Of a stretch of 38,000 nt of DNA, positions 2,355-37,402 are shown one piece after another. Origin of the DNA: a virus (lineage: Duplodnaviria; Caudoviricetes); the IMG/VR virus record IMGVR_UViG_3300020043_003657, positions 1 through 38,000 of that record; one strand, written 5' to 3'. The notes under the pieces were generated by a model. The model was given only the letters and a program-made list of their open reading frames with translations. It was not told where the DNA came from and ran no database searches. The position numbers and the translations under genes were made by a program. Positions within the stretch are counted from its first letter, which is position 1; the number at the start of each line of letters is the position of its first letter.

Positions 2355-2576
2355 ATGTCCTTCTTCTCTTCCCGCTCCACCCTTCGATCCCCATCCTATT
2401 CCTCTCCGCTAACTGACTTAACCGACAGGAAAATCAGGAACTACATTCTCGCCGGGAAGTATGGCGAAGAGAAGAAGGAAGCTTTGCTCAAGGCGATTGC
2501 TGCAAAGAAAGGTAAGAAGTCAAAATCAAAAGTCAAACTGCAAGTAAAGCTGAGCGACTTCAAACATGTGCTATGA
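2355..2576 (+). CDS. small Lys-rich hypothetical protein
   Basis: ATG at 2355 within ORF 1959..2576; ATGA overlap with the next gene. Confidence 0.7.
   Translation: MSFFSSRSTLRSPSYSSPLTDLTDRKIRNYILAGKYGEEKKEALLKAIAAKKGKKSKSKVKLQVKLSDFKHVL
2407..2423. repeat. palindromic site 1 (CGCTAA-CTGAC-TTAACC)
   Basis: Copy of the dispersed GGTTAA-N5-TTAACC motif at a C-rich to G-rich switch. Confidence 0.75.
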
Positions 2577-3136
2577 CAAATCCTTTATTAACTTTCCGAC
2601 TGTTCGAGCAAATGCTGTATCAAGCTTTGCTTTATTATAAAGAGGGCAAGTCAATTAGCTGGGCACCCAGGAAAGCAGGCTTCTCTCCTGAGTATGTTCG
2701 CAGAGTGATGCGGCAAATCGGTAAGGCTGTTCTCGAACACGAAGAGTGGATTACTGAAATCGACCGTGACACTTTGCGTAAAGCGTATGAAGATTATGAG
2801 TGGGGTGTGAGTGAAGATGAAATCAGCTTTCGTCCAAGATACTTCTCTCAAAGGCTTCGTGCTGCGATGTCGCTTGGCAATGTTCCTGTCAGTCTTGTCA
2901 GTGGAGACAACTCCAACGTGCCGCCTGCTCGTGCGCTGATTAAGATTGATGGAACTAATCGAGAGTTTGTCGAGCGCATCTGCTACCTAAAAAACTTCGA
3001 CCAGATGGGTGAAGATGTTCTACTTCTCAACCTTCGTCCTGAACTGCTCGACGAAATGCTTAACCTATTTCCTAACATCGAGTTAATTCAAGATGAACAA
3101 CAAGGCATACCAACATCACACTACATCCTCCTATGA
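2573..3136 (+). CDS. hypothetical protein
   Basis: 187-aa ORF with ATGA coupling at both ends. Confidence 0.8.
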   Translation: MTNPLLTFRLFEQMLYQALLYYKEGKSISWAPRKAGFSPEYVRRVMRQIGKAVLEHEEWITEIDRDTLRKAYEDYEWGVSEDEISFRPRYFSQRLRAAMSLGNVPVSLVSGDNSNVPPARALIKIDGTNREFVERICYLKNFDQMGEDVLLLNLRPELLDEMLNLFPNIELIQDEQQGIPTSHYILL

Positions 3137-3417
3137 GCACAATATCAAACCCATACAAAAGCAAACGACTACCGGTTAAACGGCTCGCTTGCGATGTGGG
3201 AGAAGCAGATTGGAAGTGGCTACGTCAGATGATACCTGACGGGCCGCTGCAAGACATCATGCTATCACACCTTTTCCTGAACTTCATTCAGGACTTTAAG
3301 ACAGAGCTAAACAACGAACAACTCACAACTCCACCTACAGACGAACATGGATTTACTACAGTCAAACACATTCTCTCACGAACTCTACGCAGACGTTCCA
3401 GTCCACCAGCTGCTTGA
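3133..3417 (+). CDS. hypothetical protein
   Basis: 94-aa ORF coupled to the upstream gene. Confidence 0.7.
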   Translation: MSTISNPYKSKRLPVKRLACDVGEADWKWLRQMIPDGPLQDIMLSHLFLNFIQDFKTELNNEQLTTPPTDEHGFTTVKHILSRTLRRRSSPPAA

Positions 3418-3589
3418 TATGGACATCACAAAGCTTGGACCTAAAGAACTCAACGCTTATATCGAGAAGCTGGATTCTGTCAAGCACGCACCTGCAACGC
3501 GCAAAGCTGTTGCTCGCAAAGAAGCCAGAGCAATATCAAAAGGAACTACACATGAAACGATTGATCAGACCTTGGCGCACTTGTTTTGA
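3347..3589 (+). CDS. hypothetical protein
   Basis: 80-aa ORF with protein-like composition. Confidence 0.65.
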   Translation: MDLLQSNTFSHELYADVPVHQLLDMDITKLGPKELNAYIEKLDSVKHAPATRKAVARKEARAISKGTTHETIDQTLAHLF

Positions 3590-3851
3590 GTTCTTCTTCT
3601 GCACAAGCGTAGTCATTATCAACAGTCAAGGAAAAGTAACTATCCAGATTCGTTATCCTTTTGGCTTACCGCCAAGGGACTATGAACCTAAGTGGAGTTA
3701 CTACTCCGGTGACGACATCTATCGTTCAGTAAAATTCTCTACCCTCCCCACCATCAACACCATCATCTATGCAACAAATAATACTTCAGACAGATTACAA
3801 GCGCCCCGCGCCGGACTTAGCCAAACTTCGCAAGCTGTTCAAGTGGCGTGA
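3552..3851 (+). CDS. hypothetical protein
   Basis: ATG at 3552 with AGGAA upstream, within ORF 3414..3851; fills the gap before the nuclease gene. Confidence 0.45.
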   Translation: MKRLIRPWRTCFEFFFCTSVVIINSQGKVTIQIRYPFGLPPRDYEPKWSYYSGDDIYRSVKFSTLPTINTIIYATNNTSDRLQAPRAGLSQTSQAVQVA

Positions 3852-4827
3852 CGACGGCGATCTCGACCTGCACTTTGACTGGTCATCGCTTGAATGCTTC
3901 CTAAGCTGCAATCGCTCTGCGTTATACAAGCTCGTCCACTCCAAGACTTCCAAGGGTAAAGCTGCACTAACCTTCGGAGCAGCAATCCACGCAGCGCTGG
4001 AAGTTTATTACAAGCTCCACACCGATCCTGACAAAGCCAAAGTCTTACAGCTGTGCCGTCAAGCTATTGACAACGCTTTCGCTGAAGTGACCATCAGTTA
4101 CTTTGACGAATACCGCACACCTGACTACGCTTACTCTTGCTTCCTGCAATACATCCAGCACTACGCACAAGAGTCTCTTACTCCCATCGTTACCGCTGAC
4201 CGCCCGTTGATTGAGTTCTCATTCGCGTTCGACCTTGCAGAGATGAACATTCCAGCAAGTGTGTTCCACACCTACGGCTTGGGCATGCTTACCAACGAGC
4301 CAGAGAAAGAAGCTCAAGCTGTTGGTGACCTTCGCGTTCACGTCAAATGGACAGGCATCTGTGACCTTGTTGCTAACATCAACGGAGAGAACTGGCTCAT
4401 CGACCATAAGACTACGTCAATCCTTTCCTCTGATTTCTTTGATGGCTTCAACCTCGCAATGCAACCAATCGGTTATGTCTACGCTGCAAACTTAGCATTC
4501 CCCGAACTGGACATCGCTGGCTTCATGGTGAACACCCTCGCCTGCCGCAAGCCAACAAAGACTGGCAAGGGCTTTGAAGCTCATCGTTCATTCCATCGCT
4601 ACGAAGCATGGCAGTTCGATGAGTGGAAGTCAGACGCAACTAACCTAATCAGCGAGTTCGTCTACAACCTCACGTTAAACTCTTGGCCAAAGAAAACCAC
4701 GTGGTGCATTGGCAAGTACGGCAAGTGTCCTTTCCTGGATGTCTGCTCTCTACCACCAGCTCACCGCATTCACCTCCTCGACTCCGATCAATACGTCAAC
4801 AACACCTGGAAACCTGTATCTGCTTAA
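3769..4827 (+). CDS. PD-(D/E)XK exonuclease, Cas4/RecB-like
   Basis: FGAAIHAALE, GICDLV, LIDHKT, QPIGY motifs; N-terminal Cys plus C-terminal C-x6-C-x5-C, typical of Fe-S staple nucleases. Confidence 0.88.
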   Translation: MQQIILQTDYKRPAPDLAKLRKLFKWRDDGDLDLHFDWSSLECFLSCNRSALYKLVHSKTSKGKAALTFGAAIHAALEVYYKLHTDPDKAKVLQLCRQAIDNAFAEVTISYFDEYRTPDYAYSCFLQYIQHYAQESLTPIVTADRPLIEFSFAFDLAEMNIPASVFHTYGLGMLTNEPEKEAQAVGDLRVHVKWTGICDLVANINGENWLIDHKTTSILSSDFFDGFNLAMQPIGYVYAANLAFPELDIAGFMVNTLACRKPTKTGKGFEAHRSFHRYEAWQFDEWKSDATNLISEFVYNLTLNSWPKKTTWCIGKYGKCPFLDVCSLPPAHRIHLLDSDQYVNNTWKPVSA

Positions 4828-4830
4828 CCT

Positions 4831-5595
4831 ATGAAATCCTCCACTAACTTCACACCACGCCTCCCTCAATCCTTCCTGTTCATCGGCTCGCCCGGCTCAG
4901 GAAAAACAACCTTCGCACTCCAACTTCCAAAGGTCGGCATCATCGACTGCGATGACAATCTCGGTGGCTCAGTCCGCTACCTGCGCTCCATCAACAAGAT
5001 CAAACCATTTCACTACGACACACCCCTCCGTGATGCGAATGACAAACCTGTCCCTCGTGAGCAGCAGTTCACACAGGTCTGCAAGATCCTCGACGAGATG
5101 GTTGCTTCACCAGAAGTCGAGACTATCATCATCGACTCACTCTCCTCCCTCGTCGAGATGCTCTTCGCCCACGTTCTCTCCCAGATGAAACGTCCGATCT
5201 CTCCCGACCTGCGCATCGCCGATAAGAAATTCGAGTATGAAGACTGGGCAGCTTTCGGCAATCTCCTCCGCAAGTTCATCTTCAACCTCAAAGCCTGTGG
5301 CAAACGCTTTGGTCTTACCGCTCACACCAACGTCGATCAGGACGAACTAACCAAGATCCTCTACCGCTTCATCAACTGCCCTGGCGCTGTTCGCAACCAT
5401 CTCTCCGGCTGGTTCGAAGAAGCCTGGGAATTCTACATCTTTACTCAAGGCGTCCCACCTAACGAGAAAGCAATCCGCAAAATCCGCACAGTGCCAGACG
5501 CACGCTCAGTGAATCTCGGTCTCAAAACCTCCGCTGGCCTTGCTTCCACCCTCGACGCAGACGTAGATACAATCCTCTCCAAACTCAGCGCATGA
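4831..5595 (+). CDS. AAA_24/Sak4-like ATPase (recombination)
   Basis: Walker A GSPGSGKTT, Walker B IIIDSLS, TAH motif; lies between the exonuclease and SSB-like genes. Confidence 0.85.
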   Translation: MKSSTNFTPRLPQSFLFIGSPGSGKTTFALQLPKVGIIDCDDNLGGSVRYLRSINKIKPFHYDTPLRDANDKPVPREQQFTQVCKILDEMVASPEVETIIIDSLSSLVEMLFAHVLSQMKRPISPDLRIADKKFEYEDWAAFGNLLRKFIFNLKACGKRFGLTAHTNVDQDELTKILYRFINCPGAVRNHLSGWFEEAWEFYIFTQGVPPNEKAIRKIRTVPDARSVNLGLKTSAGLASTLDADVDTILSKLSA

Positions 5596-5786: not shown

Positions 5787-6226
5787 ATCTCGATCAACAT
5801 CCCTTGCCGCCAGGTTATTCTCTCATCACATCCAAACCAAACTGGAAGCCACTTCCTGAAGACACCATTATGCTCACTCCAATGGGCTGGGTATTACCTC
5901 TTGACGAATCTGTCTGCCACACCCATGACGGCCCATTCGCCACAAGAGACAGTGACTCCATCGACATCCTCGAAGAAGCATACGACCTCACCACAGTCTC
6001 CCGCCAAGGCGACTACGGTTGTCCCTCCGAATCTTTCTCTCGCATCGCTGCCTTCTGGACGACCTACCTCGACCACGAAATTTCCCCACAACAAGTCGCT
6101 CAGATGATGGCGCTACTCAAAATCTCTCGCTCCATCACTTCCCCCAAGCGTGACACTTTCGCAGACCAAGCAGGCTATACTCGCCTCGCCTATCTGCTAA
6201 CCCCTGTGCCTCCTAGCGAGGCCTAA
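5783..6226 (+). CDS. DUF6378-like protein
   Basis: ILEEA...RQGDYG.P..SF.RIAAFW...VAQMMALLKISR...D..GY; start at ATG 5783. Confidence 0.8.
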   Translation: MNLDQHPLPPGYSLITSKPNWKPLPEDTIMLTPMGWVLPLDESVCHTHDGPFATRDSDSIDILEEAYDLTTVSRQGDYGCPSESFSRIAAFWTTYLDHEISPQQVAQMMALLKISRSITSPKRDTFADQAGYTRLAYLLTPVPPSEA

Positions 6227-6266
6227 ACCAAAACACAAACAAAAACAAACAAACACAAAAAACAAT

Positions 6267-6789: not shown

Positions 6790-6969
6790 ATGCCAACCGT
6801 CATTCACTCATTTGATGATTTTGTTCAAGAAGCTGCAAAGCTCCCTGATTTATCTAGAGCTCCTATATTTCATCTCGACCCTCTTGAAGCACACTTCTTT
6901 TCTGTCGCAGATAAACACGGTGTCATAGACGAAATACTCGATCCAGAAACAGAAATCTACTTTGACTAA
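6790..6969 (+). CDS. small hypothetical protein
   Basis: ATG at 6790 (MPTVIHSF...) within ORF 6715..6969. Confidence 0.65.
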   Translation: MPTVIHSFDDFVQEAAKLPDLSRAPIFHLDPLEAHFFSVADKHGVIDEILDPETEIYFD

Positions 6970-6970
6970 C

Positions 6971-7264: not shown

Positions 7265-8770
7265 ATGTCAAAACTCAAAAAGCTCAAAGATGTAACTTAC
7301 CTGCCAATCACTGATGTAGTTGTAGGCGCACGGTTAAGAAAAGATTCACCGAATGTCAAAGCTATGGTGGAGGAGATTGCTAGGTCAATCAAAGACATTG
7401 GCCCATTGCAGCCTTTGATCTTGGACGAGAAGAACAACTTAATCGACGGTGGCTGCCGCTTTGCTGCTTATAGTTTGCTTGGAGCAGATGAAGTTCCAAT
7501 TGTTCGCCGGACTCGTGTATCAGCTGGTGCGAAGTTGGCTATGGAAGTTGAGGCTAACCTTCGCCGCAGTGACTTGACGTGGCAAGAGAAAGTCGAAGCT
7601 ATTGCACGCTATCATGAGCTGAAAACACAAGGTGCAGAGGAAGAAGGTAGCGAGTGGTCTCAGCGTGCTACAGGTTCTTTGCTCAAGGTGTCCAACGCGC
7701 ATGTGAGTAACTGCGTGCAGATGTGGCCTTTCCTCAAGAAGGGAGATCCAGAGATTTTGAAGTGTAGTTCTTTGCAAGAGGCGCAAGATGTATTGCTGGA
7801 ACGCAAGAAAAAGATGGCTGTGCAACATGCGCTGGCTGTTACTGCTATGGCACAACCAGAAGTGTTGCAGCAAATCACAGAGAAGAAGACAAGTGCTGCT
7901 CCTGTAGTGTTTGCTTTGGGTAAGGGTGAAAGCCTTGTGCCAGTGCAAGTCAAAGCTGCTGCGGCTGAGGTTAGTATGAGTGTTGGTATGACTCCACCTA
8001 AAGTTGTCGATCTCTCCAAGCTTTTGTTTAACGATGATTGCACTGAGTGGATGCTGCGTGCTCCACGTGATTCTGTCGATGTCATTGTCACTGATATTCC
8101 ATACGGCGTTGACATGGCTAACATGGAAGATATGAAAGGCATTGACATGATGAAAGCGACACATGAAGTCGAGGGCAATCTTGATCTGATGCCTAAGTTT
8201 ATCAAAGGTGCATTCCATATCCTGCGCCCTAACTCTTACCTTATCTTCTTCTATGCTCTCCAGCATCATGAGAAGCTGCGTAACTGGGGTGAAGATGCAG
8301 GATTCAAGGTGCAAGACTGGCCGTTGCTGTGGCTCAAACCACACAGCTGTAAGAACAATGCGCCACAGTGCAACTGGACTAAGTCCTTTGAGCCTGTGAT
8401 GATTATGAAGAAAGGTTCTCCAACGCTCAAGACGCCAATGACCAAATGCCACATGGAAGTTGACGGGATGCCAGACAAGAAGATGCAGTCAAATCCTTTT
8501 GCCAAGCCTCTGCATTTCCTCTCCGAAATGATCTTCAAGCCGCTAGGATTAGCTCCAGGTGCTATCTGTCTTGACCCTTTCTCCGGCGAAGGTTCAATCC
8601 TTAATGCAGCTATCCTTCATGGTCTGCAACCGATCGGTATCGAGCTAGACAAAGATCGTTTCCCTTCTCTTGTCGCTCGTGTCCAGCGCACCTACGCCAA
8701 AGCCTTCAACGCTAACTGCAAATTTATCCTACCAGAATATGAGAAGCAAGAACAAGTTTCCCTCCATTGA
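7265..8770 (+). CDS. ParB-N domain, HTH and N6/N4 DNA methyltransferase fusion
   Basis: IGPLQPL...LIDGGCR (ParB), WSQRATGSLLKVSNAHVS (HTH-like), TDIPYG (motif IV) before LDPFSGEGS (motif I), the beta-class order. Confidence 0.88.
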   Translation: MSKLKKLKDVTYLPITDVVVGARLRKDSPNVKAMVEEIARSIKDIGPLQPLILDEKNNLIDGGCRFAAYSLLGADEVPIVRRTRVSAGAKLAMEVEANLRRSDLTWQEKVEAIARYHELKTQGAEEEGSEWSQRATGSLLKVSNAHVSNCVQMWPFLKKGDPEILKCSSLQEAQDVLLERKKKMAVQHALAVTAMAQPEVLQQITEKKTSAAPVVFALGKGESLVPVQVKAAAAEVSMSVGMTPPKVVDLSKLLFNDDCTEWMLRAPRDSVDVIVTDIPYGVDMANMEDMKGIDMMKATHEVEGNLDLMPKFIKGAFHILRPNSYLIFFYALQHHEKLRNWGEDAGFKVQDWPLLWLKPHSCKNNAPQCNWTKSFEPVMIMKKGSPTLKTPMTKCHMEVDGMPDKKMQSNPFAKPLHFLSEMIFKPLGLAPGAICLDPFSGEGSILNAAILHGLQPIGIELDKDRFPSLVARVQRTYAKAFNANCKFILPEYEKQEQVSLH

Positions 8771-11550: not shown

Positions 11551-12383
11551 AACCAATGCTCGCCCACAGGTTTAACGACCACAAATCAAAGCTACCTCCA
11601 ACCTTCTTTGTCCAGCCAAAGCTCAATGGCATTCGCGCACTCTACAACAACTCTACCTTCCAATCTCGCGACGAAGTTATCTGGCATCCATCAGTCCTCG
11701 CACACCTCACTGCCCAACTCCAACTCCTCGCCCCACCCCACATTATCCTAGACGGCGAACTCTACCACCACGGTTGGTCTCTTCAAAAGATCAACAGTGC
11801 TGTCTCGGTTAACCGACTTACCCCACACAAAAACACACCAGACATTCAATACCATGTCTTTGATTTAGTTGATACGTCACAACCAAACTTACCATTCAGC
11901 TCCCGCGCTTGGATGTTAAACTCGTTGCTTGAGCGGACGATCTTGCACAACACTCCACACGTCAAGGTTGTTCCCACTATGGAGTGCACTATCCCTCTTG
12001 CTGAAGTTCAGTATGCTTTATACAAAGCTGCTGACTACGAGGGTCTTATGTATCGCCATCCCGACGCGCCTTATGGTTTGCTTCAGAATTGTGGTAACAA
12101 ACAAAATCGTTGGGCCTGTCTTCTCAAGCGCAAAGACTGGATGGACGATGACTTTGAGATTACTGACTTTGAAACTACCACAGGCGACAAAGGATTCCGA
12201 GGCTTCAAGCTCACCTGCCGCGCGCAGAATGGTAACTACTTCCGCGTTGGCAGTGGCCTTGCCTCTGAAGAAGTAGATGAGTTTGAACACACACCTCCAA
12301 TCGGCCGCAAAGCTAAAGTAAAGTATGAAATGCTATCTGACGATGGCACACCGTTAAAGCCAACTCTCGAAGCGATTATATGA
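11547..12383 (+). CDS. lig: ATP-dependent DNA ligase
   Basis: QPKLNGIR (motif I), LDGELY, YHVFD, EGLMYR, LLKRK, OB-fold VGSG. Confidence 0.95.
   Translation: MKPMLAHRFNDHKSKLPPTFFVQPKLNGIRALYNNSTFQSRDEVIWHPSVLAHLTAQLQLLAPPHIILDGELYHHGWSLQKINSAVSVNRLTPHKNTPDIQYHVFDLVDTSQPNLPFSSRAWMLNSLLERTILHNTPHVKVVPTMECTIPLAEVQYALYKAADYEGLMYRHPDAPYGLLQNCGNKQNRWACLLKRKDWMDDDFEITDFETTTGDKGFRGFKLTCRAQNGNYFRVGSGLASEEVDEFEHTPPIGRKAKVKYEMLSDDGTPLKPTLEAII
11807..11823. repeat. palindromic site 3 (GGTTAA-CCGAC-TTACCC)
   Basis: Inside the ligase gene at a moderate skew switch. Confidence 0.75.
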
Positions 12384-19600: not shown

Positions 19601-21587
19601 AAGCTACCTTCACTTGATTTAGCTTTGTCCGAATCGTTTCAACTGCTCTGTCTCCAGGAAGCCCTTTGTCAAAAGTCAGACGAACTTGATTGTCTACTTC
19701 AGCCATGAGCTTAGAATAAACATTCTGATCAGCCTCGTCAACTTCACTAATCATCGCCTGCAGCTTTGTATAAAAGTCTACAGTAGTAGGGTTTTCAGAC
19801 GCTAATCCATCTGCAATCCTTTTCTCACTTTTCTCAATTCTTTCCAGCGTAGCTTTAGCCAAGCCTGGAGGTCTTCCACGTGGCTTTCCTGGAGTTTTAG
19901 CAAGTATCGCATCCTGAGCTTTCTGCCCTTCTACTGCATCCAAAGCTCCATCTACCTTTGTCAGCTGTTCCTGATTAACTTCAGTAGTAGCTTCCTTTAC
20001 AGTCTTTCCTTCCTTCACCTTCTTCTCCACCTTAGCCTTCACTTCCACATCACTTAGCGGCCTCCTCCCAGTCGCCCACAAAGCCATACTTACAAAAGCA
20101 CGATCGTCCGCAAACTTAGTTCCTTTACCTTGCAGCACCTTTTCCACTTCCTCGGCAACCTCCTTAAAAGGACCAGCCATAAGCGAGTCTCTCTTCCCGG
20201 CAGCTAACTGATGCATTGAGTAAATCACTTGCTGCCCGCGCTCACTCACTTTGCCATCCAGAGCACTTTTGTAATCTTTAAACAATCTTTCCCCTGCACT
20301 CTTCTGCATCAGACTTTCTGGCAACGTCAACTCATCAATCGCCACACCAAGTAAATCTTCCACTCCACCAACCACTTTCATTTGATCCATCCGAGACTTC
20401 TTAATAGCATCAAGCTCTTTCAGCTTTAACTGAAATCTCTCAATCCTCTCTTTTGCCTCAGGAGCAAGCACATTCAGATTACTTGAGTCTTTCAACACAT
20501 CATCAAGCTCCATTCCTGCCACTAGCGGCTCCCTTTCCTGCAATCCCTTCCAGTCATTCTCCAACAACACTCTCTCTTGACTCATCCCATCGTCAAAGTC
20601 CTTGTTTATCTTAGTTAGCCGACGCTCACCGAGAAGTTGTGCTGCAATGTCAAAACCAGCTGCGCGCTCTGTGCGAGTCTTTTCAGCTGGGCTAAGAGAA
20701 GAAATAAGTGACTCAAACTCAAAAGCACGTTGTTCGCTAGGTGTGCGGACAGGACCTGCGTCTGGTGGCAGAATTGTGCGGCCAGTGTTGATAATTTTTG
20801 TACCAACAAAGTCATCAATGTTTAACGGAGCAAAGGCTAAGTTGCCAAGGAGGTTAGAGAAAAGATACTCTTTATTAAAGACTGCATCAGTGCCTTGAGC
20901 TGCAACATCAAGACCAAGACCAGTGGCTTGCCCAGCTAGCTCAGCTCCAGCAAAGCGAACAATCTTATCAGGAAGTTGATCAATAACAAGGTCAGCTGTT
21001 TTTGTGCCGATTGGTAAAAAGCTAGCTGCGTCATCGGTAAGGTCACGGATTACTTCACGACCACCTGTGACGCCGAGTTTTTGAAACGCAGGTGACTTAG
21101 CTGCTGCTTGAAGTGCAGCATTGCCACCAAGGTTCATAGCTTTGCCAACAACCATCGGAGCAGCTCCAGCAATAGCAGTCTGCCACATCGAGCCTGTCTG
21201 GTCAAATGTGTCTGCGGCGCTGAGACCAAAAGAAAGCGCAGGGCCAACGACTGGAATGGCCATTGCCCCTACGTTAGCAATTTGCCGTGGAAGTGAACGT
21301 CCAACTTGCTCACCCACAGTGCGGTCAACTCCAACTAACTCTGCTAAGTTCCCAGACCATTCCCCGAGAGTCTCATCTGGAGTAATAGCAGCAATGCCTT
21401 CATTGAGACTTTGATTCGCTGTGCGAATTAAGTTTTCCCAAGGGCTAGCGTTACCAATGCGAGCCATTTCTGGATCGCCGGTAGAACGAGCACCAAGCCG
21501 AGCAAACTCTTCAAGAGAAAGGTTTGCAGCGGCTGGATTGTTTGCTTTAGTTTGCTCAAAAAGAGACTTGATTTCGGGGAAGGTCAT
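13605..21587 (-). CDS. giant internal virion/ejection protein, large polyvalent type with zincin-like HExxH
   Basis: 2660 aa; last gene of the virion operon; THENSH...EEVMAN metallopeptidase-like motif; modular architecture. Confidence 0.8.
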   Translation of the reverse strand: MTFPEIKSLFEQTKANNPAAANLSLEEFARLGARSTGDPEMARIGNASPWENLIRTANQSLNEGIAAITPDETLGEWSGNLAELVGVDRTVGEQVGRSLPRQIANVGAMAIPVVGPALSFGLSAADTFDQTGSMWQTAIAGAAPMVVGKAMNLGGNAALQAAAKSPAFQKLGVTGGREVIRDLTDDAASFLPIGTKTADLVIDQLPDKIVRFAGAELAGQATGLGLDVAAQGTDAVFNKEYLFSNLLGNLAFAPLNIDDFVGTKIINTGRTILPPDAGPVRTPSEQRAFEFESLISSLSPAEKTRTERAAGFDIAAQLLGERRLTKINKDFDDGMSQERVLLENDWKGLQEREPLVAGMELDDVLKDSSNLNVLAPEAKERIERFQLKLKELDAIKKSRMDQMKVVGGVEDLLGVAIDELTLPESLMQKSAGERLFKDYKSALDGKVSERGQQVIYSMHQLAAGKRDSLMAGPFKEVAEEVEKVLQGKGTKFADDRAFVSMALWATGRRPLSDVEVKAKVEKKVKEGKTVKEATTEVNQEQLTKVDGALDAVEGQKAQDAILAKTPGKPRGRPPGLAKATLERIEKSEKRIADGLASENPTTVDFYTKLQAMISEVDEADQNVYSKLMAEVDNQVRLTFDKGLPGDRAVETIRTKLNQVKVAYVKDQIGKGKAADQNDEAVEAMASVPSEQITTVDFSQLDELRNQLSLPELKNNTISEWALRILDRGLGKDTLRILLDEKNQKLPIIQELIEELKKFETPSIFNSKGQLKVEYTEFFNFVHSMMKKETPNLQKAGVVEELKNMDALLQNKAWLIYQQWKKDGKPPVENIVGMKFARSGVNENPLAYSAAQSMMSLNDWSDTLLRSEGFSPEESQQLREHFANAVEMFYSPEVRYGKLGEKQDNLLFARAAAGGGFDFGMAEVKDGKLLRPGKGAVTPRKDGTLSLQEFKVAGGQFGVLQDGEIEFYKQIAPEAFAGDRVNVVQLWDSLQKAGEQVKVVTYGQDGQPTEAKLELDKMTHDWVDNLSAPVKKILTSYLEGRMTSQEVKAELSGGSNVEFATKLDRFLELGDMPKMASDGPKATSYYNQISPFDTKKYPVLRVDVVLPIGKLTGNETSAQLNAAGDARKPLWRPDNLHENLPNTLGWAMVQIVPHPVTGEKVMFVGEAQSRWGQQAQKYGVKDPKARVEYEQLGKEIDTLNAQSSELSAFDPKLKPIQSRLMELYAQRDVLFNRLQKAGTIEPHILLPIHQNLILKSVIKEAQKQGISKVAVSDGETAMMTERHDQATQQVYNLTVEQGVKKYPDRIKFNRVDADGDWEVDLGEGPVVVSKDQPLTPEFIDLPEPIVTSRPQQEGGMRLAYDTTMPSIMKKLVGEGTVEDFGVHKNAYQEGEDPFSDPEGSPVFRTLSGTPKTNATARVYDITAPSERLSSLFARANVSQTYAAAATRTRDIFFSPSALKGRNLILQQTSLLTHENSHVLFSKARSGSFGPEAQRLTSDFESWAKALNPHEAETFVDVLSDVWLGKEWKALPGVGDVLKNIRNEKGEVDVEEVMANVFGAYAAGLNKPSNPTKFYTMLPRVVRDMFDWVARMTQGVVGAARMYGKFGGDVKQVRQAQKVKEVFDAVRRGARNAERNLSDLAELANLRQSDVVDKVDVMYAKGKYGSSGAGKWKEKLSYLFDNTVMRMGSLAATYDGLQDPFMKMKDFSPLNADLTAQVFSSLGMGKYGHTGLSVTKDGSWMRIRNSPELHKLASQINLEMQMLNQSLVTRGADGSLQFNVQGMTPELRGKFGMFKPEAQQAVAEYFVRRAEKANPIVQGVIVSKEWETQANKLHELLFESSYADFGGQFEKSKLWSERVMKMAQNGDDAGVTAEIAALGDPIVQKQIGDYIAAQSEKIRFLDAEYKKNPNFGSLRRFQPIKVKWIKAGETAKNMQANSAEEAERMDAELRAKGWTPQSVRITDFKSKGSDVFDSTTKVRVKDMEERVKLALKEMAVPEEFKAELEKEIDFVGMIERTENAQSVFSTKAQRRFAEGVEDLMVLEQDMLWMSKAIYAANRAALDSNVRVALKNPKLDNYLDAKQTFAQGFENFKTQNHEWLSKLSKANAAYFIGFNIPGHIAELMQPVMTHFAEMRYIGVKTQDALGIMLGASKDLVSFYKRNMKKFAKGEEVHLWDDWQNKDEKDMLFRMKHAINASPLNYAYSDVGFEQQKLIEATESGQKQSLLQAVSSPATAYANTGLKFYGLFTRHNAIMGLLNGYRSYRKIGLSHEEAMQKVGLFETIVNKSGGKADRQAFPFKNNAVLGHLFYGLQGYTTGWVSQLATYYRHGYKSDSYAGFKDNPEAIKRARSAFKTMLGAQFAAAGVMGMPMVGALTTLLEELTGDDIRGEMYEALDSVTNDPLLSQAASHGLSTALAERMGIPADLHGRFAIGGLLGFNAYDGFSASSLFGPTAGVMNSMWNLGKSLYQERDLQKAFSAGGPTGLRSIAKALDEELPLRNENALGTALGFNSPQVRKEREFTRIAQKRNEKAAQEISHAARRVQDALALGSSAAQQKLRTEAMKLAETPDQLEDLIRSIGNKVKLFEEQKTFPKDIREVATPQTTAGLSQLAKSMGVRLPASQEAEREAMKQAVMRKMGMSPASQMRQAMLEDYRAESDPWMLR
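13764..13780. repeat. palindromic site 4 (GGCTAA-TTGAC-TTAACC)
   Basis: Inside the giant gene at a skew switch. Confidence 0.8.
17069..17085. repeat. palindromic site 5 (GGTTAA-GCGCC-TTAGCC)
   Basis: Inside the giant gene at a very sharp skew switch. Confidence 0.8.
20604..20620. repeat. palindromic site 6 (GTTTAT-CTTAG-TTAGCC)
   Basis: Degenerate copy inside the giant gene at a skew switch. Confidence 0.6.
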
Positions 21588-29004: not shown

Positions 29005-30790
29005 CGCGTTTAAATTGATCTAAGTTTTTAACTCCCCTAAGCTCCTGAATCCTCATAATCATCTTCACCACATCCAAGTTCGTAGCCGCCAGCATCTCAG
29101 GATTACCCATCAAAGCAATCACCAGCTCCTGAAGACTCTGAGCAAGGAACCCTTTCTCGCTCTGACTCGTAGCGTCAAACACAAAAAAGTCTTCATTACC
29201 CACAAGCTCCCACCAGTTATCCTTATGGAACTTCTCCCAAGCCTCCAACGTCTCATCACTCTCCTCGCCCACAATCTTATGGAACGTCTCTTCACTCATC
29301 CACTGCCTTGCATTGTTAAGAATCACTCGACCCATAGGCCCAAGCGCCATCTCCCAAATATTAGACCCGATCAGCTTCAACCGACTCCCACCACCAGCTG
29401 CCACGTTCCTAGCCTCCGTAGCGCTTCTCCTTCCACTAGCAAAATTCCCCATTGCATTCTCCGTCACCCCACTCACCGTCTGCATCACTCGCATCAACTC
29501 CTGTGCATCCTGCACATGCGTCACAGTCGGATCAGTCGTCCTTAACTGCTGAATGAAGTTCTGCACACCACCCATAGCCGGAGCACTCTTCTTCAACCGA
29601 ATGAACGGACTCCGCGTCATCAAATCTTCCACCTCAATGAACTGAGGATGAACCACCAGCTGCTTCTCAATGTTGTTCTTAACAGCCTCAATCCTCGAGT
29701 TCATCAACCACGTCACAGTATCCTGCAACTTGTCAATCACACCACTTAAGCTATCGCAAGGTCGCGCATGCAAATCAGAACTGAGCATCCCAGCAAAATA
29801 TGTAAAACGCATATTCGCATCTTCCATCTTCTCCGCCCTCACAATCCTCTTATCATTCGCTAGCTCAAGCACCCACAGCTCCTCCTCATCACTCTCGCTC
29901 AGCTTATACTCACTTGGCACCAGCTTCCGCTGCACAGTGGTCACAGCCACCATAAAGTTATCCTCACTCTTACCAGTATCCTTCGACGGATCAAAGCCTT
30001 CCAGCCTTGTCTCACCTCGCTCCTCATACTCCCGAGTTGACATCCGCTCCACATGCTCAGCACCAAACACACCATTCCGGCGCTTCAGCTCCCTCACATG
30101 CATCACAGTCTCATCTGCCACAAACTCTCCCTCTTCCCACCGCATCAACGGCAGCCTCGTATCAGGATACCAGTTATACGGACTAACATTATACACCTTC
30201 GTCCCCTCACACACCGTCACTTCAATCTCTTGGTTAACTGGGTTAACCGACAGCTCATCAGCCATGGAGGTTGGTGAGAAGAACGAGATGATGGAAGCAG
30301 ACTCGGGAGAGGCTTCGACTTTGATCGTGCGGTATTCCCAGGAGGTTTTGAAGACTCCAAGGGAGAAGCGTGCAACGTCTAGGTTGAAAGCGTAGATTTT
30401 GGAGTAAAGGCGGTTAGTGCGAACCTCGCGCTCAAGGATTGCTTCGTTGGTTTCTTTCAGGTCGTAGTCTTCAGAGCCAGAGGCTTCGACTTCAAAGAGC
30501 GTTGGATTCTGGGCGAAGAGAGAAGTGATGAAGGTTGCAAAGGTGTTGACCTGAGCGTAGGAAAGTGGGATGATCTGCTTGGCTGGCTCGCGCTTTTTCT
30601 TTGCACGAACGTCCTTGGCATCTTCGTCAGATTGCTGTTGGTAGATTTCAAGAGCATGATCCCAGTCGGCGTAGAATCTACCCATGTATGTGCGACTGCG
30701 TTTGAGATCGCGCACGCATTCTTGAAGGAGAGATTGGAGATCCTCGTCTTGTTCCTCTTGGGAGAGACGATCGGTTAGGTCTTTAGTCAT
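28895..30790 (-). CDS. portal protein
   Basis: 631 aa after TerL; VSPYNWYPD, VSGVTENAMG...RRSATE podoviral portal motifs. Confidence 0.9.
   Translation of the reverse strand: MTKDLTDRLSQEEQDEDLQSLLQECVRDLKRSRTYMGRFYADWDHALEIYQQQSDEDAKDVRAKKKREPAKQIIPLSYAQVNTFATFITSLFAQNPTLFEVEASGSEDYDLKETNEAILEREVRTNRLYSKIYAFNLDVARFSLGVFKTSWEYRTIKVEASPESASIISFFSPTSMADELSVNPVNQEIEVTVCEGTKVYNVSPYNWYPDTRLPLMRWEEGEFVADETVMHVRELKRRNGVFGAEHVERMSTREYEERGETRLEGFDPSKDTGKSEDNFMVAVTTVQRKLVPSEYKLSESDEEELWVLELANDKRIVRAEKMEDANMRFTYFAGMLSSDLHARPCDSLSGVIDKLQDTVTWLMNSRIEAVKNNIEKQLVVHPQFIEVEDLMTRSPFIRLKKSAPAMGGVQNFIQQLRTTDPTVTHVQDAQELMRVMQTVSGVTENAMGNFASGRRSATEARNVAAGGGSRLKLIGSNIWEMALGPMGRVILNNARQWMSEETFHKIVGEESDETLEAWEKFHKDNWWELVGNEDFFVFDATSQSEKGFLAQSLQELVIALMGNPEMLAATNLDVVKMIMRIQELRGVKNLDQFKRDEQPINNIGGLPGQAELGGPPQPIPGGGSIPPQLPV
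30232..30248. repeat. palindromic site 8 (GGTTAA-CTGGG-TTAACC, perfect arms)
   Basis: Inside the portal gene at a very sharp skew switch. Confidence 0.85.
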
Positions 30791-34150: not shown

Positions 34151-35464
34151 TTAAATTCGGAATAGTTGAAGGGTTGCGCCAGCGGAAACCGTGACGGAGT
34201 TTGCTCCTCCAGTTTCAGCCGCAAAACGAATGGCAAACGTTCCTGTGGCAGTAGCCACAAATCGGCCTGAAATCGTCCACCTTGAAATGAGAGGCAAGGT
34301 TGGGCTAATTGTTGCAGTGACTTTTGTATCGTAAGCTGTAACTGCGCCGTTTGTTAAACTGCCTGCTGCGTTTGTAGCAATACTTATTTGTCCGTTAATT
34401 GACGATGCCGTTGGCCCATTGATAGCCATTGACATTCCCTCACCTGAAACACTTCCGCCATATAAACCTGTCGCGAAGAATCCGTAAGTGCCAGTTGCCC
34501 CTACTGTTGCCGTCAACAAATCGGCCAACGTAGTCGATGAGCTTGTGGAGTCTGAAGATGTGGCATTATAAACAGCGGAAGATCCGCCAGCAGCCCACTT
34601 CACGCCGCTGGCTTCTGCGCTGTCCACCGTCAAGACATGACCGTTAGTGCCTCCCACAGCCACGCGGATGTTGTCAGCGCCGTTGTGGACGATGAGGTCG
34701 CCTTTGGTCGTCGTTGGTGCCAGCGCATCAAAGGCTGCGGTTTTAGCCGTTTGGCCTGTGCCGCCGTTGGCGATGGCGGTGGTGGGTAGCGCCGAGTAAA
34801 TCAAGTCGCCTGATGTTGCAACCCCTGTGACGAATTGCCCCGGACTACCTGAACTGGAGTAAACTCCGCCCAAGTTTGTCGTTAAGGGGCCGGGGATGGT
34901 AGCGGCGTTAATGTTTGTTAACTGACTTCCATCTGCTTCAGCCAACCTCGATATAGCATCAGCACCAGCGGTAGAAATTGAAAAACTAAAATCAGTCGGG
35001 AGTGAGCTACCGTTACCTGGAGCCGCTCCAGCCGTAAGATTAGTTACCGTAAAACTCCCACTATACGAAGGAATCGCAGAAAACGCCGCCGACTGAGAAG
35101 AGAGCGCTATAATGAAAGCCGCTTCCACGTCAGTTGGGCTAGATCCATCACTAACAGCTACGACCTGCAACCTCCCGGGAGATGGTGCTGATGGAGCAGA
35201 CCCACCTCCATCCACTGTGAACCAAAAGCGACAAACTTCAGTGCCGTCGTCAATATCGACATACTCACCAGCCCAGCTATTTGTTGCTGAATTCTGCACC
35301 GACACCACAACAACCTGCGCTACAGCGGCTATGATTTCACTAACCCCAAGAGCGACTCTGGCTGCTGGTGCTGTCGTGCTACCAGTCCCACCATTCGCCA
35401 CACTAACTGGCAAATCAACTCCACTACCGCCACCACCACTTCCAGGAGTATCAAGAATAATCAT
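34151..35464 (-). CDS. tail fibre / receptor-binding protein
   Basis: Two ANGGTG repeats, TTKGDLI...GTNGHVLT...GVKW module, Gly/Ser/Thr/Ala-rich, beta-sandwich-like C-terminus. Confidence 0.85.
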   Translation of the reverse strand: MIILDTPGSGGGGSGVDLPVSVANGGTGSTTAPAARVALGVSEIIAAVAQVVVVSVQNSATNSWAGEYVDIDDGTEVCRFWFTVDGGGSAPSAPSPGRLQVVAVSDGSSPTDVEAAFIIALSSQSAAFSAIPSYSGSFTVTNLTAGAAPGNGSSLPTDFSFSISTAGADAISRLAEADGSQLTNINAATIPGPLTTNLGGVYSSSGSPGQFVTGVATSGDLIYSALPTTAIANGGTGQTAKTAAFDALAPTTTKGDLIVHNGADNIRVAVGGTNGHVLTVDSAEASGVKWAAGGSSAVYNATSSDSTSSSTTLADLLTATVGATGTYGFFATGLYGGSVSGEGMSMAINGPTASSINGQISIATNAAGSLTNGAVTAYDTKVTATISPTLPLISRWTISGRFVATATGTFAIRFAAETGGANSVTVSAGATLQLFRI

Positions 35465-35467: not shown

Positions 35468-35758
35468 TTACCACCTCCCACAGTTGATGTTTACAGCTCC
35501 ACCTGAGTTCTGCCAAACAAACCATTCAGCATTCACCAGAAAGCTATCACCACCTGAGTTCTGCACCACCAAACTCGCAGGAGCCGTCGCACCACCGGCC
35601 GGAGGCAGGTAAAACTCAGCCGCATCAGCAGCCGCGCCACACCTCATCCTCAATCCAGTCGTCGTATTAAAGTTTTGAAACCACACAGCGTGGCAGAACA
35701 CAGCCTCAACCTTCTCCAGCACCTTTGTGCTTGCATTATTTGGAACAGCTACAGTCAT
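35468..35758 (-). CDS. small hypothetical virion protein
   Basis: 96-aa ORF directly upstream of the fibre gene. Confidence 0.75.
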   Translation of the reverse strand: MTVAVPNNASTKVLEKVEAVFCHAVWFQNFNTTTGLRMRCGAAADAAEFYLPPAGGATAPASLVVQNSGGDSFLVNAEWFVWQNSGGAVNINCGRW

Positions 35759-35771
35759 AAATTTCTTTGTG

Positions 35772-35788
35772 GTTTAAGTTAATTAGCC
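35772..35788. repeat. palindromic site 9 (GTTTAA-GTTAA-TTAGCC)
   Basis: Overlaps the TerS stop codon at a sharp skew switch. Confidence 0.7.
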
Positions 35789-36295
35789 CACCTGCGGAGC
35801 GGATTGTGTCATGCCCAGTTCTTTTCGGAGAGATTCGATTTCCTCGTCTTCGCGTTGTTTAGGGCGGGAGGAGTTGGAGTGGACTACGTTTTGTGAAGGG
35901 CGTCCGAGGGTGCGGTCTAGGATTTCTTTTGCTGCCTGGAGACGGACTGTCTCGGAAGAAGCGGAGTGAAGGAGAGTTTGAAGGACGAGGATTGCGTCAG
36001 CGCTCGCAGAGTGGAGCTGGGAGAGTTCGTAGGAACCTGCAACACGGTCAATGGAGGCGGAGGAAAGTTGCTCGCGGGCCTCAGGGGTGGTCAGGTAGGA
36101 TTGGATTTCTCTAACTGGGCGGTTGAGCGAGCGGGAGATCTCGTAGAGAGACTGGCCGGAGGCAGAAAGTAGGACAGCACTGCGGTGCCAAGGGAGGGCG
36201 ATGGAGGTGAGGACGGTGGGAGCGGGTGAGGCTTCATCGTCTAGGAGGGCGACCGCAGGCTGTCGGGAAGGAGTGAGGATAAGGGGTTCACTCAT
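35783..36295 (-). CDS. terS: terminase small subunit-like protein
   Basis: HTH SLYEISRSLN plus SETVRLQAAKEILDRTLGRP; first large gene of the late arm. Confidence 0.65.
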   Translation of the reverse strand: MSEPLILTPSRQPAVALLDDEASPAPTVLTSIALPWHRSAVLLSASGQSLYEISRSLNRPVREIQSYLTTPEAREQLSSASIDRVAGSYELSQLHSASADAILVLQTLLHSASSETVRLQAAKEILDRTLGRPSQNVVHSNSSRPKQREDEEIESLRKELGMTQSAPQVG

Positions 36296-36378
36296 GGCTT
36301 GGTTAAGAGCACTGTGAGGTTATCGCGGGAAGTCACGATGACAATTTTGGGCTGTTTAGGTGTGATCGTGGGGCGCAT
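36292..36378 (-). CDS. 28-aa leader ORF, possibly leaderless
   Basis: MRPTITPKQPKIVIVTSRDNLTVLLTKP; ATG 5 nt after a -10 box; ATGA coupling to terS. Confidence 0.5.
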   Translation of the reverse strand: MRPTITPKQPKIVIVTSRDNLTVLLTKP

Positions 36379-36383
36379 GGGGT

Positions 36384-36411
36384 AAGGTAGCAAGGGGAAG
36401 GGAAAAGGAAA
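36384..36411 (-). promoter_or_regulatory. putative late-arm promoter
   Basis: TTTCCT-16 nt-TACCTT with extended TG and an AT-rich upstream tract; resembles the promoter at 438-465. Confidence 0.5.
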
Positions 36412-36634
36412 GCGGGATTTATTATTTTTTCTTAGGGCAGTGGACACCATGACGGATAAGCTACCCGCCCAAGCGCCCGCCCGCCCCTAGCAAGCCCGCC
36501 TTGCCCCTTTCCTTCGCGTTTTAGCCCCCTTTACCGCCCGCCCGCTATCATCACCCTAACCCAAAACAGCCCCTTTATTTCGCCTTATTGCGACCCCGTC
36601 TCAACACCCTCCTCAACTCCTCCTTCCTCCTCTC

Positions 36635-36651
36635 GTTTAACCTACTTATCC
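36635..36651. repeat. palindromic site 10 (GTTTAA-CCTAC-TTATCC)
   Basis: Intergenic copy at the end of a strongly C-rich tract. Confidence 0.7.
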
Positions 36652-36806
36652 CACAGCCTTCGGTTTGAGTTAGCTTTTTTTTTGGTTAGGGTTACTCCGC
36701 GCGTGGTAGAGGGATATATTAACACCCCCACACCCCGGCTGGGTAGGGAACCCCTTTTAGCTTATAGGTGAGGGGGGGCGGGAAGCACTCCGGGGGCTCG
36801 GGGCCA

Positions 36807-36834
36807 AGCGCAAGGTGCGCTATGATCTTTGACA
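36807..36834 (+). promoter_or_regulatory. hairpin plus boxA-like antitermination element
   Basis: AGCGCA-AGG-TGCGCT hairpin followed by TGATCTTTGACA. Confidence 0.45.
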
Positions 36835-36852
36835 CGATAGAAAGCAGGTTAT

Positions 36853-36868
36853 TGTTCTACGTAGAACA
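36853..36868. promoter_or_regulatory. parS-like perfect palindrome TGTTCTACGTAGAACA
   Basis: 16-bp perfect inverted repeat resembling chromosomal parS TGTT(T/C)CACGTG(A/G)AACA. Confidence 0.6.
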
Positions 36869-36935
36869 TTAGCGTGCAATCAGGTACTTTACGGCAATTC
36901 GTGGAGTATCTGATACACACGTTAAAGGAAACACT

Positions 36936-37346
36936 ATGATCAAAATCAAAGCAAACAATGGCGGTAATACTTATGGCTATCTTATCTCAGAAGTTCAATG
37001 GATGGAAGTCGCAAAGACTGTCTTTCTTGAGACTCAAAAAGAGCAGTCCGAAAAAGTAAAAGAGCCGTTAAAGATGGGCGGCGCGATTAGCCAGTTTTTG
37101 CACGCCTATGGCGTGACAGGAGAGCAAGATGAAAAGAGTGTCCTAGCAGGGAACGCTAGCGCCTTTCCAGCCAACGGAGGAGAGTTTGAATCCGCTGATT
37201 GGCTAACGGCTTGGAATCACTCTGAAGGCCGTTCGGCAGGACTTGCGACAAGACAAGCCACTTGGGATAGAAAGGCCGCCGACCTTAGAGGGGGCGGACT
37301 TAAGCCGGAAGACTTTATCGGCAAGCGCCCAGAGGCCAAAGCATAA
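36936..37346 (+). CDS. early hypothetical protein
   Basis: 136 aa; AAGGA Shine-Dalgarno; followed by a terminator. Confidence 0.85.
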   Translation: MIKIKANNGGNTYGYLISEVQWMEVAKTVFLETQKEQSEKVKEPLKMGGAISQFLHAYGVTGEQDEKSVLAGNASAFPANGGEFESADWLTAWNHSEGRSAGLATRQATWDRKAADLRGGGLKPEDFIGKRPEAKA

Positions 37347-37361
37347 AGCCGCCTAGTGAAA

Positions 37362-37402
37362 GAGGTTGTGGGGTAAGCTAATTATCCCACAGCCTCATTT
37401 TT
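37362..37402 (+). terminator. intrinsic terminator-like hairpin whose apex is palindromic site 11 (37371-37387, GGGTAA-GCTAA-TTATCC)
   Basis: GAGGTTGTGGGGTAA/TTATCCCACAGCCTC stem followed by ATTTTT. Confidence 0.7.

What the first reader, a model, noticed from the sequence alone, without database searches (positions are those of the whole stretch)
2407..37387. Genome-wide array of a palindromic site, GGTTAA-N5-TTAACC, mostly every 2-5.5 kb and often inside genes
Seen: eleven copies, at 2407 (CGCTAA-CTGAC-TTAACC), 7181 (GGTTAA-GCTAC-TTAACC), 11807 (GGTTAA-CCGAC-TTACCC), 13764 (GGCTAA-TTGAC-TTAACC), 17069 (GGTTAA-GCGCC-TTAGCC), 20604 (GTTTAT-CTTAG-TTAGCC), 25870 (GGTTAA-GTTAC-TTATTC), 30232 (GGTTAA-CTGGG-TTAACC), 35772 (GTTTAA-GTTAA-TTAGCC), 36635 (GTTTAA-CCTAC-TTATCC) and 37371 (GGGTAA-GCTAA-TTATCC). 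The flanks are also biased: 3' usually (C/G/A)AC, 5' often TGTG or TCTC. The spacer usually has Y(T/G)A at its centre. Six copies lie inside coding sequence (ligase, portal, giant protein three times, ORF 2355) on both transcription arms, so most are not placed like promoters or operators. Inference: a dimeric protein's binding or loading site, or a hairpin signal, tiled along the whole chromosome.
Basis: partly seen in the sequence, partly recalled or inferred. Interest (0 to 1): 0.92.

Follow-up and report, generated by a model that had tools for sequence, protein, structure and literature searches.

The report
Phage docking sites for ParB-methylase clamp
Eleven evenly spread copies of a 25-base palindrome in this phage genome are real, and they are likely the private docking sites of the phage's own ParB-type DNA-binding protein fused to a DNA methyltransferase, which is predicted to load there and slide out to methylate phage DNA only.

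Summary
The 11 sites are real: a 25-bp dyad (10-5-10) scoring 21-31 bits against 9.5 for the next hit, not reproduced by codon shuffles, and more evenly spaced than random. The window is a partial podovirus genome with no ParA or integrase found. ORF 7265-8770 is a ParB/KorB-like NTP-binding domain and helix-turn-helix fused to a beta-class N6/N4 methyltransferase. Of 53 relatives with this gene, 48 carry their own version of the array. The two long records without the gene (one only 46% complete by CheckV) show none. The recognition helix (S143-N149) was the best predictor of the inner half-site among 3,491 protein windows in one test; two cruder tests did not rank it first. Arg goes with G and Gln with A at the position matching ParB R173/Noc Q158. 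The arms show no compensatory pairing, so they are not hairpins. Best reading: parS-like loading sites for a sliding, self-confined methyltransferase (binding about 0.85, full mechanism about 0.6). The main rival is KorB-like gene control. The scan found this system before on other phage DNA (unchecked AI notes); my five paper searches found no description of it.

The parts
2403..2427 (.). 25-bp dyad site 1, inside small ORF 2355-2576
   Evidence: 28.7 bits
7177..7201 (.). site 2, over the stop of ORF 6962-7186, centre 76 bp before the ParB-methyltransferase start
   Evidence: 30.7 bits; same place in relative G001
11803..11827 (.). site 3, inside the DNA ligase gene
   Evidence: 30.6 bits; absent at this place in G001, L172 and L259
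13760..13784 (.). site 4, inside the giant-protein gene (codon 2602)
   Evidence: 24.5 bits
17065..17089 (.). site 5, inside the giant-protein gene (codon 1500)
   Evidence: 27.8 bits; same place in G001
20600..20624 (.). site 6, inside the giant-protein gene (codon 322), weakest copy
   Evidence: 21.3 bits
25866..25890 (.). site 7, intergenic in the structural arm
   Evidence: 29.3 bits; site-like sequence at the same place in 7 related records
30228..30252 (.). site 8, inside the portal gene
   Evidence: 30.7 bits; same place in G001, L003, L008, L012, L001, L002
35768..35792 (.). site 9, over the stop of the small terminase gene
   Evidence: 27.3 bits
36631..36655 (.). site 10, in the non-coding region between the divergent arms
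   Evidence: 28.6 bits
37367..37391 (.). site 11, after ORF 36936-37346, also inside a terminator-like stem with T tail
   Evidence: 28.2 bits
7265..8770 (+). ParB-HTH-methyltransferase fusion gene (501 aa), the likely reader of the sites
   Evidence: Pfam ParB_N and N6_N4_Mtase; PHROG; models and fold searches
7286..7567 (+). ParB NTP-binding domain (about aa 8-101): R23-x-R25, G62-G-C-R65, A97-N98-L-R-R101
   Evidence: Z 13.7, rmsd 1.6 over 89 residues to M. xanthus ParB; conservation in 101 homologues
7655..7738 (+). helix-turn-helix (aa 131-158); recognition helix S143-N149 at 7691-7711
   Evidence: helices 133-140 and 144-158 in the model; covariation with the motif
7850..7984 (+). low-confidence linker (aa 196-240), likely flexible
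   Evidence: pLDDT below 50
8000..8728 (+). beta-class amino-methyltransferase domain: D277-I-P-Y280 (motif IV) before D437-P-F-S-G-E-G443 (motif I)
   Evidence: Foldseek E about 1e-14 to TTHA0409 and CcrM, 1e-12 to M1.HpyAVI; D277, P279 and G441 invariant in 101 sequences

Best explanation
The 11 palindromes are likely parS-like loading sites for the phage's own ParB-helix-turn-helix-methyltransferase (ORF 7265-8770): a dimer is predicted to read the two half-sites with its recognition helices, close as a nucleotide-bound clamp and slide a few kilobases, and so would carry its methyltransferase along phage DNA only. Shown: the sites, their even spacing, the protein's domain make-up, lineage-specific versions of the site in relatives, and covariation of helix and site. 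Inferred: binding (about 0.85), clamp closure and sliding (by analogy with ParB, Noc and KorB), active methylation, and its purpose, most likely protecting progeny genomes from host restriction while leaving host DNA unmarked. The array would tile the genome so that no stretch lies more than about 2-3 kb from a loading point. The gene sits just before the DNA polymerase gene, so it would act on replicating DNA.
For: (1) Fold: residues 1-197 match Noc, ParB and KorB (Foldseek E 4e-8 to 2e-6; Z 13.7 over 173 residues to KorB 8qa9), and the C-terminal part matches beta-class methyltransferases. (2) Co-occurrence: among 59 records searched de novo (window included), 54 hold the fusion; 47 of these have an odd-spacer 25-bp array and 2 a weak even-spacer one. 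G014 and Caulobacter phage Kuura lack the gene and give only codon-type noise. (3) Each lineage has its own word (GGTAA, TTCAA, TTAAG, ATCAAT, GTCATT, GTCCCAA and others), which points to a phage-encoded reader. (4) Covariation: in a leave-clade-out prediction over 43 non-redundant genomes, the two overlapping windows on helix 143-150 rank first and second of 3,491; S143-N149 stays in the top 24 for the inner bases at clade cut-offs up to 1.2. At the position matching C. crescentus R173, Arg goes with G at site base 7 in 4 of 5 genomes, Gln with A in 4 of 5, and other residues with T in 31 of 33. [quoted passage not shown] G028 (SNAHVSH) and G038 (SNASVSH) share the window's GTTAA core at about 37-38% capsid identity. 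(5) Spacing is more even than random in 38 of 40 genomes, p < 0.05 in 25. (6) Methyltransferase motifs IV and I are near-invariant in 101 homologues. (7) No ParA and no tyrosine integrase in 43 records, 32 of them at least 90% complete. (8) The window is depleted of restriction-type words (GTAC 20 against 146 expected, CTGCAG 8 against 39).
Against: No binding, nucleotide or methylation data exist. Two earlier scans did not single out the helix: a partial Mantel test gave r = 0.21 (6 of 5,000 naive permutations) while ligase windows reached 0.49, and on distant pairs the helix ranked 45-344 of about 4,500-4,900; a mutual-information scan placed it 28th at best. The successful test was my third design, and I chose the inner-base range. 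With the widest clade cut-off the rank falls to 14-63, with all 12 half-site bases to 48-389, and 11 of 1,324 giant-protein windows beat it on their 27-genome subset. The R and Q rules rest on 4 and 3 independent contrasts, none opposite but neither significant, and I noticed them after seeing the table. Five records with the gene show no array (G046, G051, G055, G057, G062). Thirty of the records, and MW202489.1, were picked because they hold the gene, so only two long records test absence, and G014 is 46% complete by CheckV. The window's protein has G63 and A97 where B. subtilis ParB has the catalytic E78 and E111 (PMC8494293, passages), so CTP turnover is doubtful. In PMC12704722 (section 8) no N6N4-methyltransferase fusion is named among the nucleotide binders. 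The preference for intergenic places also fits a regulator.
Confidence: 0.6

Rival explanations
1. Same reader, different job: the protein is a KorB-like sliding regulator that represses or times phage promoters from near and distant operators, and the methyltransferase works on its own targets without needing the sites.
For: KorB gives the longest top structural match (173 residues, Z 13.7) and silences from 4 bp to over 1 kb away (PMC11790492, introduction and passages). Sites prefer intergenic places (254 of 415 in ORFs against 383 expected). Two lie in or near the divergent control region and one 76 bp before the gene itself.
Against: Six of 11 are in coding sequence, three inside one 8-kb gene. 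Spacing is over-dispersed rather than clustered at operon starts. A site within 100 bp upstream of the gene occurs in only 2 of 14 genomes. The fusion to an intact methyltransferase is kept across the family.
Confidence: 0.2
2. Same reader used to coat or organise the phage genome (Noc-like shielding, marking of own DNA for replication or packaging), with methylation secondary.
For: Noc-NBS is the top Foldseek hit. Even tiling suits coating. ParB-like proteins were proposed to direct modification enzymes to viral DNA during packaging (PMC6536676, passage citing Iyer 2013). G023 keeps an array although its C-terminal domain is diverged.
Against: The gene lies in the replication module, not beside terminase. 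No membrane-binding N-terminal helix is seen in the model. The methyltransferase catalytic motifs are near-invariant.
Confidence: 0.1
3. The sites are read by another protein: a host factor, or another phage protein such as the giant ejection protein, the primase/helicase or TerS.
For: Five records with the fusion show no array. Windows of ligase, TerL, primase, TerS and the giant protein beat the helix in cruder scans, and 11 giant-protein windows did so on their subset.
Against: The word changes from lineage to lineage and recurs where the helix recurs. In the leave-clade-out test no TerS, TerL or primase window beat the helix. Kuura and G014 have a related capsid but lack both fusion and array.
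Confidence: 0.07
4. The palindromes act as single-strand hairpins or oriented translocation or recombination signals.
For: All 11 fit the + orientation better in leave-one-out, more than genome-average skew explains (p at most 0.013). Site 11 lies in a terminator-like stem.
Against: No compensatory pairing in 42 genomes. No shared orientation in most relatives, and site skew follows genome skew (r = 0.67). C/G at four-fold positions is 3.6 in early and 1.3 in late genes, and a bias near the upper value explains the asymmetry (p 0.1-0.27). Spacers differ between copies, and no tyrosine recombinase was found.
Confidence: 0.03

Closest known systems
ParB-parS and Noc-NBS (PMC7383237, PMC12704722, PMC8494293; passages read)
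   Same: ParB NTP-binding fold plus helix-turn-helix; palindromic cognate site; the same helix position pairs Arg with G and Gln with A.
   Different: 25-bp site with a 5-bp spacer rather than 16 bp; sites tile the whole genome; no ParA; C-terminal methyltransferase in place of the dimerisation domain; both catalytic glutamates replaced in the window's protein.
KorB and its OB operators on plasmid RK2 (PMC11790492; introduction and passages read)
   Same: ParB-family sliding clamp loading at operators near to and far from promoters; longest structural match (173 residues).
   Different: KorB is a repressor with partner KorA and carries no enzyme; here the clamp domain is fused to a methyltransferase in a phage with no integrase or ParA found.
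Phage ParB-N6/N4-methyltransferase fusions (PMC12704722, PMC6536676; passages read)
   Same: Same domain pair, common in phages, function open; suggested to direct modification to sites in the viral genome.
   Different: The passages read name no sites. The Paracoccus examples lie beside terminase; this one lies before DNA polymerase and has a helix-turn-helix with matching genome-wide sites.
Cluster O mycobacteriophage 17-bp repeat (PMC4351075; passages and Discussion read)
   Same: A dyad repeated 34 times across an apparently non-temperate phage genome, about a third within genes, predicted to bind a dimer; the phage also encodes a ParB-like protein.
   Different: Different word and width; the paper did not link repeat and ParB-like protein; its methylase genes are separate cytosine methyltransferase genes.
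Cluster A mycobacteriophage stoperators (as described in PMC4351075, Discussion)
   Same: Many sites of one phage protein spread along a genome.
   Different: Stoperators are asymmetric, oriented with transcription and serve lysogeny; these are symmetric, with no integrase found.

Membership tests
ParB-CTPase family (ParB, Noc, KorB) | N-terminal ParB/Srx nucleotide-binding fold | tested here: met
   Z 13.7, rmsd 1.6, 89 residues to 7o0n; Foldseek E 4e-8; Pfam ParB_N E 2.5e-4, below its curated cut-off
ParB-CTPase family (ParB, Noc, KorB) | Nucleotide-binding residues (GxxR arginine, ENxxR asparagine and arginine) | tested here: met
   G62 and R65 in 100 of 101, N98 in 101 of 101, R101 in 100 of 101
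ParB-CTPase family (ParB, Noc, KorB) | Catalytic glutamates for CTP hydrolysis (B. subtilis E78, E111) | tested here: not met
   Window has G63 and A97; the family has E in 35 and 68 of 101 (PMC8494293). Register assigned from the motifs; the conserved E94 might stand in.
ParB-CTPase family (ParB, Noc, KorB) | Central helix-turn-helix that reads a palindromic site | tested here: inconclusive
   Fold present; covariation strong in one test, moderate in two; no binding data
ParB-CTPase family (ParB, Noc, KorB) | CTP-dependent clamp closure and sliding | not testable with these tools
   Needs biochemistry
ParABS partition system | Cognate ParA ATPase | tested here: not met
   None in the window; 0 of 43 related records, control 14 of 14
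ParABS partition system | parS sites clustered at one centromere-like locus | tested here: not met
   Sites are over-dispersed along the genome
Beta-class DNA amino-methyltransferase | Motif IV (DPPY-like) before motif I (FxGxG), Rossmann fold | tested here: met
   DIPY 277-280, DPFSGEG 437-443; Foldseek to CcrM, M.BceJIV, M1.HpyAVI
Beta-class DNA amino-methyltransferase | Methyl transfer to adenine N6 or cytosine N4 at a target sequence | not testable with these tools
   No methylome; target and base unknown
KorB-OB repression system | Sites tied to promoters and a KorA-like clamp-locking partner | tested here: inconclusive
   Intergenic preference; no sigma-70-like promoter found in 35500-38000; no partner sought
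Tyrosine-recombinase sites (dif-like) | Matching spacers and a cognate recombinase | tested here: not met
   Eleven different spacers; 0 of 43 records with PF00589
Hairpin signals | Compensatory changes between arms | tested here: not met
   0 of 42 genomes with z above 2, mean z -0.8

The most novel reading that the evidence does not exclude
A self-addressed epigenetic system: a hydrolysis-poor ParB clamp loads at lineage-private sites and drags a broad-specificity methyltransferase along the phage chromosome, so that one enzyme shields phage DNA from many restriction systems while host and competitor DNA stay unmarked. The helix-to-base code would make it a re-addressable, cis-confined DNA-modifying tool.
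Probability: 0.35. Interest if true: 0.92.

Novelty: new variant of a known kind. Interest (0 to 1): 0.75.

Why it matters
ParB-methyltransferase fusions are frequent in phages and their function is open (PMC12704722). This supplies candidate target sites, a residue-to-base rule, dozens of natural protein-site pairs and named phage records for testing: Desulfofustis phage LS06-2018-MD01 with 9 near-perfect sites, and Microcystis phage Mel-JY34 with a weaker array. If the sites load a sliding enzyme, ParB clamps would have a use beyond segregation and gene control: delivering a DNA modification to one replicon.

Tried and rejected
Exact-pattern scan of viral contigs: 2 hits, both in unrelated RNA-virus-like polymerase genes, taken as chance. 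The DNA polymerase query in viral contigs and the fusion query in bacterial genomes found no relatives, so no host was identified. Atlas search of the first 2,000 aa of the giant protein gave only leads under 0.9 (large polyvalent protein clusters). Partial Mantel and mutual-information scans did not rank the helix first. Orientation of sites as a family trait: rejected. Link between the catalytic glutamate at position 63 and site density: none (p = 0.15; independent pairs 0 for, 1.7 against). Autoregulatory site just upstream of the gene: only 2 of 14 genomes. Homodimer prediction of aa 1-197: no verdict. No RNA holder listed among public runs. Contigs of four runs did not resolve the inverted right end. 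Earlier scan notes by place: nothing. Rows dropped before the covariation tests: 12 of 59 records (5 without the gene in the record, 5 without a motif, 2 with even spacers) and 4 near-duplicates. The G038, G048 and G053 motifs appeared only in a second pass and were re-seeded with patterns written from those hits; G053 has only 4 sites. For the 30 later records at most 40 kb each was fetched. Iyer et al. 2013 was not available and is cited only through PMC6536676. No supplements were read; Dataset S4 of PMC12704722 may show whether such a fusion was assayed.
Full report
Setting. The window is a 38-kb virus record of a podovirus with SU10-like capsid and portal. On the + strand lie an exonuclease, a Sak4-like protein, a ParB-methyltransferase (7265-8770), DNA polymerase A, ligase and a primase/helicase-like gene. 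On the - strand lie small and large terminase, portal, capsid and a 2,660-aa protein. Complete relatives are mostly 43-50 kb, and in G006 and G033 about 7 kb of early genes lie where the window ends, so the record is partial. The host is unknown.

The observation. All 11 copies are present as written. The element is 25 bp, two 10-bp arms around a 5-bp spacer. A symmetric matrix gives 21.3-30.7 bits for the 11 and 9.5 for the next position. Because that score is circular, I also ran an unseeded palindrome search. It returns the same sites at 26.0 against 17.2 in Markov shuffles and 28.2 against 18.3-20.1 in codon shuffles. In 500 synonymous-codon shuffles the mean number of hits of 20 bits or more was 0.10, and no shuffle reached the real score at any of the six coding sites. 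Spacing is more even than random (CV 0.48 against 0.87, p = 0.014).

Relatives. In G001 (65-72% identical DNA) four of the five alignable sites sit at the same place, rewritten towards that phage's own consensus, and the ligase site is absent. I searched 59 records de novo, the window included. Nearly every lineage has an array with the same 10-5-10 build but its own word: GGTAA or GGTCA, TTCAA, TTAAG, ATCAAT, GTCATT, TTCG, GTCCCAA and others, at about one site per 2-7 kb. The fusion gene was found in 54 records. Of these, 47 have an odd-spacer array (weak in about six), 2 have a weak even-spacer array (MW202489.1 and Vibrio phage VS-ABTNL-3) and 5 gave nothing. Three fragments have arrays but do not hold the gene in the part on record; one of them, G009, has the same sites as G037, which holds it. 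G014 and Caulobacter phage Kuura lack the gene and show only codon-type repeats. Thirty records were chosen through the fusion itself, so the absence test rests on two records. Spacing is more even than random in 38 of 40 genomes. Sites fall inside ORFs less often than chance, 254 of 415 against 383, but still mostly inside.

ORF 7265-8770 folds (mean pLDDT 86; aa 1-197 alone 94) into a ParB nucleotide-binding domain and helix-turn-helix that match Noc, ParB and KorB, a low-confidence linker, and a beta-class methyltransferase like CcrM and M1.HpyAVI. The nucleotide-binding arginines and asparagine and the methyltransferase motifs are nearly invariant in 101 homologues. The two glutamates needed for CTP hydrolysis in B. 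subtilis ParB are replaced by G63 and A97; B. subtilis mutants at those positions bind CTP but do not hydrolyse it, and spread further from parS (PMC8494293, passages).

Helix and site. S143-N144-A145-H146-V147-S148-N149 lines up by motif with S172-R173 to N178 of C. crescentus ParB (residues named in PMC7383237; the alignment is by eye). In 43 non-redundant genomes, Arg at 144 goes with G at site base 7 in 4 of 5, Gln with A in 4 of 5, and other residues with T in 31 of 33. That is the rule reported for ParB-parS and Noc-NBS. Distant phages with SNAHVSH or SNASVSH share the window's GTTAA core, and Gly at 145 goes with C at base 9 in 9 of 10. Three unbiased scans over the shared proteins gave mixed results. 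Partial Mantel placed the helix in the top 1-7% on distant pairs but not first. Mutual information did not pick it out. Leave-clade-out prediction ranked the two windows on this helix first and second of 3,491. That result held at clade cut-offs of 0.5-1.2 for the inner bases and weakened at 1.6 and for the outer bases. Independent contrasts all point the expected way for R and Q but are too few for significance. I take binding by this protein as likely, about 0.85, and not shown.

What the sites are not. They are not hairpins: arms pair no better than swapped arms in 42 genomes. They are not a partition locus or recombination sites: no ParA and no tyrosine integrase in 43 records, and the spacers differ. 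The + strand bias of the window's copies follows the genome's C/G skew and is not shared by most relatives; a small residue is unexplained.

Mechanism. Shown: sites, even spacing, domain make-up, co-occurrence and covariation. Inferred: a dimer binds a site, closes on a nucleotide, slides, and methylates nearby DNA. Sites every few kb would cover the genome; KorB reaches promoters up to 1.5 kb away (PMC11790492, abstract). The gene's place before DNA polymerase and the strong depletion of GTAC, CTGCAG, CATG and GATC fit protection of progeny DNA from restriction. The target base and sequence are unknown. A KorB-like regulatory role is the main rival and may coexist.

What is known. ParB-methyltransferase fusions are described as frequent in phages with an unknown role (PMC12704722, passages and section 8). 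A role in directing modification to viral sites was suggested without naming sites (PMC6536676, passage citing Iyer 2013, which I could not read). Cluster O mycobacteriophages carry a genome-wide dyad and a ParB-like gene that the authors did not link (PMC4351075, passages and Discussion). A phage ParB without an obvious DNA-binding domain activates a thymine dioxygenase (PMC13229309, abstract). A plasmid ParB-like protein, HerB, binds host chromosomal sites (PMC13370423, abstract). Searches found no paper describing cognate sites for such a fusion; the library lacks most subscription papers and I read no supplements. The scan's own notes (looked up after I had formed this reading) report the same system in several other phage genomes. 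They are unchecked and not independent support; one gave me the KorB paper.

Verdict. Observation confirmed. It works like a ParB/Noc/KorB load-and-slide system but is not a ParABS member. New variant of a known kind; interest 0.75.

Noticed in passing
window 37399-38000 and 34583-35156: An inverted, 93% identical copy of the middle of the fibre-like gene 34151-35464, with no start codon at the homology boundary, ends the record and breaks the gene order seen in G006 and G033. It is either an alternative fibre cassette or a mis-join of strain variants.
   Followed up: partly
window, whole: Strong depletion of restriction-type words: GTAC 20 against 146 expected, CTGCAG 8 against 39, GAGCTC, GTCGAC, CATG, GATC (both strands counted).
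   Followed up: no
window, whole: The + strand is C-rich almost throughout, on both transcription arms, which suggests one-directional replication; most relatives show a similar overall skew.
   Followed up: partly
window 37362-37406 and 36638-36671: Site 11 is embedded in a 15-bp stem with a T tail, terminator-like; sites 10 and 11 share downstream sequence.
   Followed up: no
window 13605-21587: The 2,660-aa protein has no Pfam or PHROG hit; Atlas leads under 0.9 point to large polyvalent proteins.
   Followed up: partly
window 1195-1330 and 1800-1890: A 23-bp inverted repeat at 1214-1236/1301-1323 and a tRNA-like-looking stretch near 1800-1890 lie in the long non-coding region; no RNA search was run.
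   Followed up: no
window 515-546, 6219-6267, 27830-27862, 28694-28722: A/C-rich runs (such as AAACAAAACAAA) directly before start codons on both arms, possibly translation signals in place of a Shine-Dalgarno sequence.
   Followed up: no
G023:C1:15425-16714: ParB-helix-turn-helix fused to a strongly diverged C-terminal domain, still with an array (TAACCTTT-type).
   Followed up: no
L215 (MW202489.1) and L237 (MF497422.1): Even-spacer versions of the array (GTTTAC-N6-GTAAAC and CAATCG-N6-CGATTG) go with fusions whose helix-turn-helix region has insertions; MW202489.1 has a different structural gene set.
   Followed up: partly
G048 (L377-L378): A tandem array of 10-bp AACAGTTTGA-like units.
   Followed up: no
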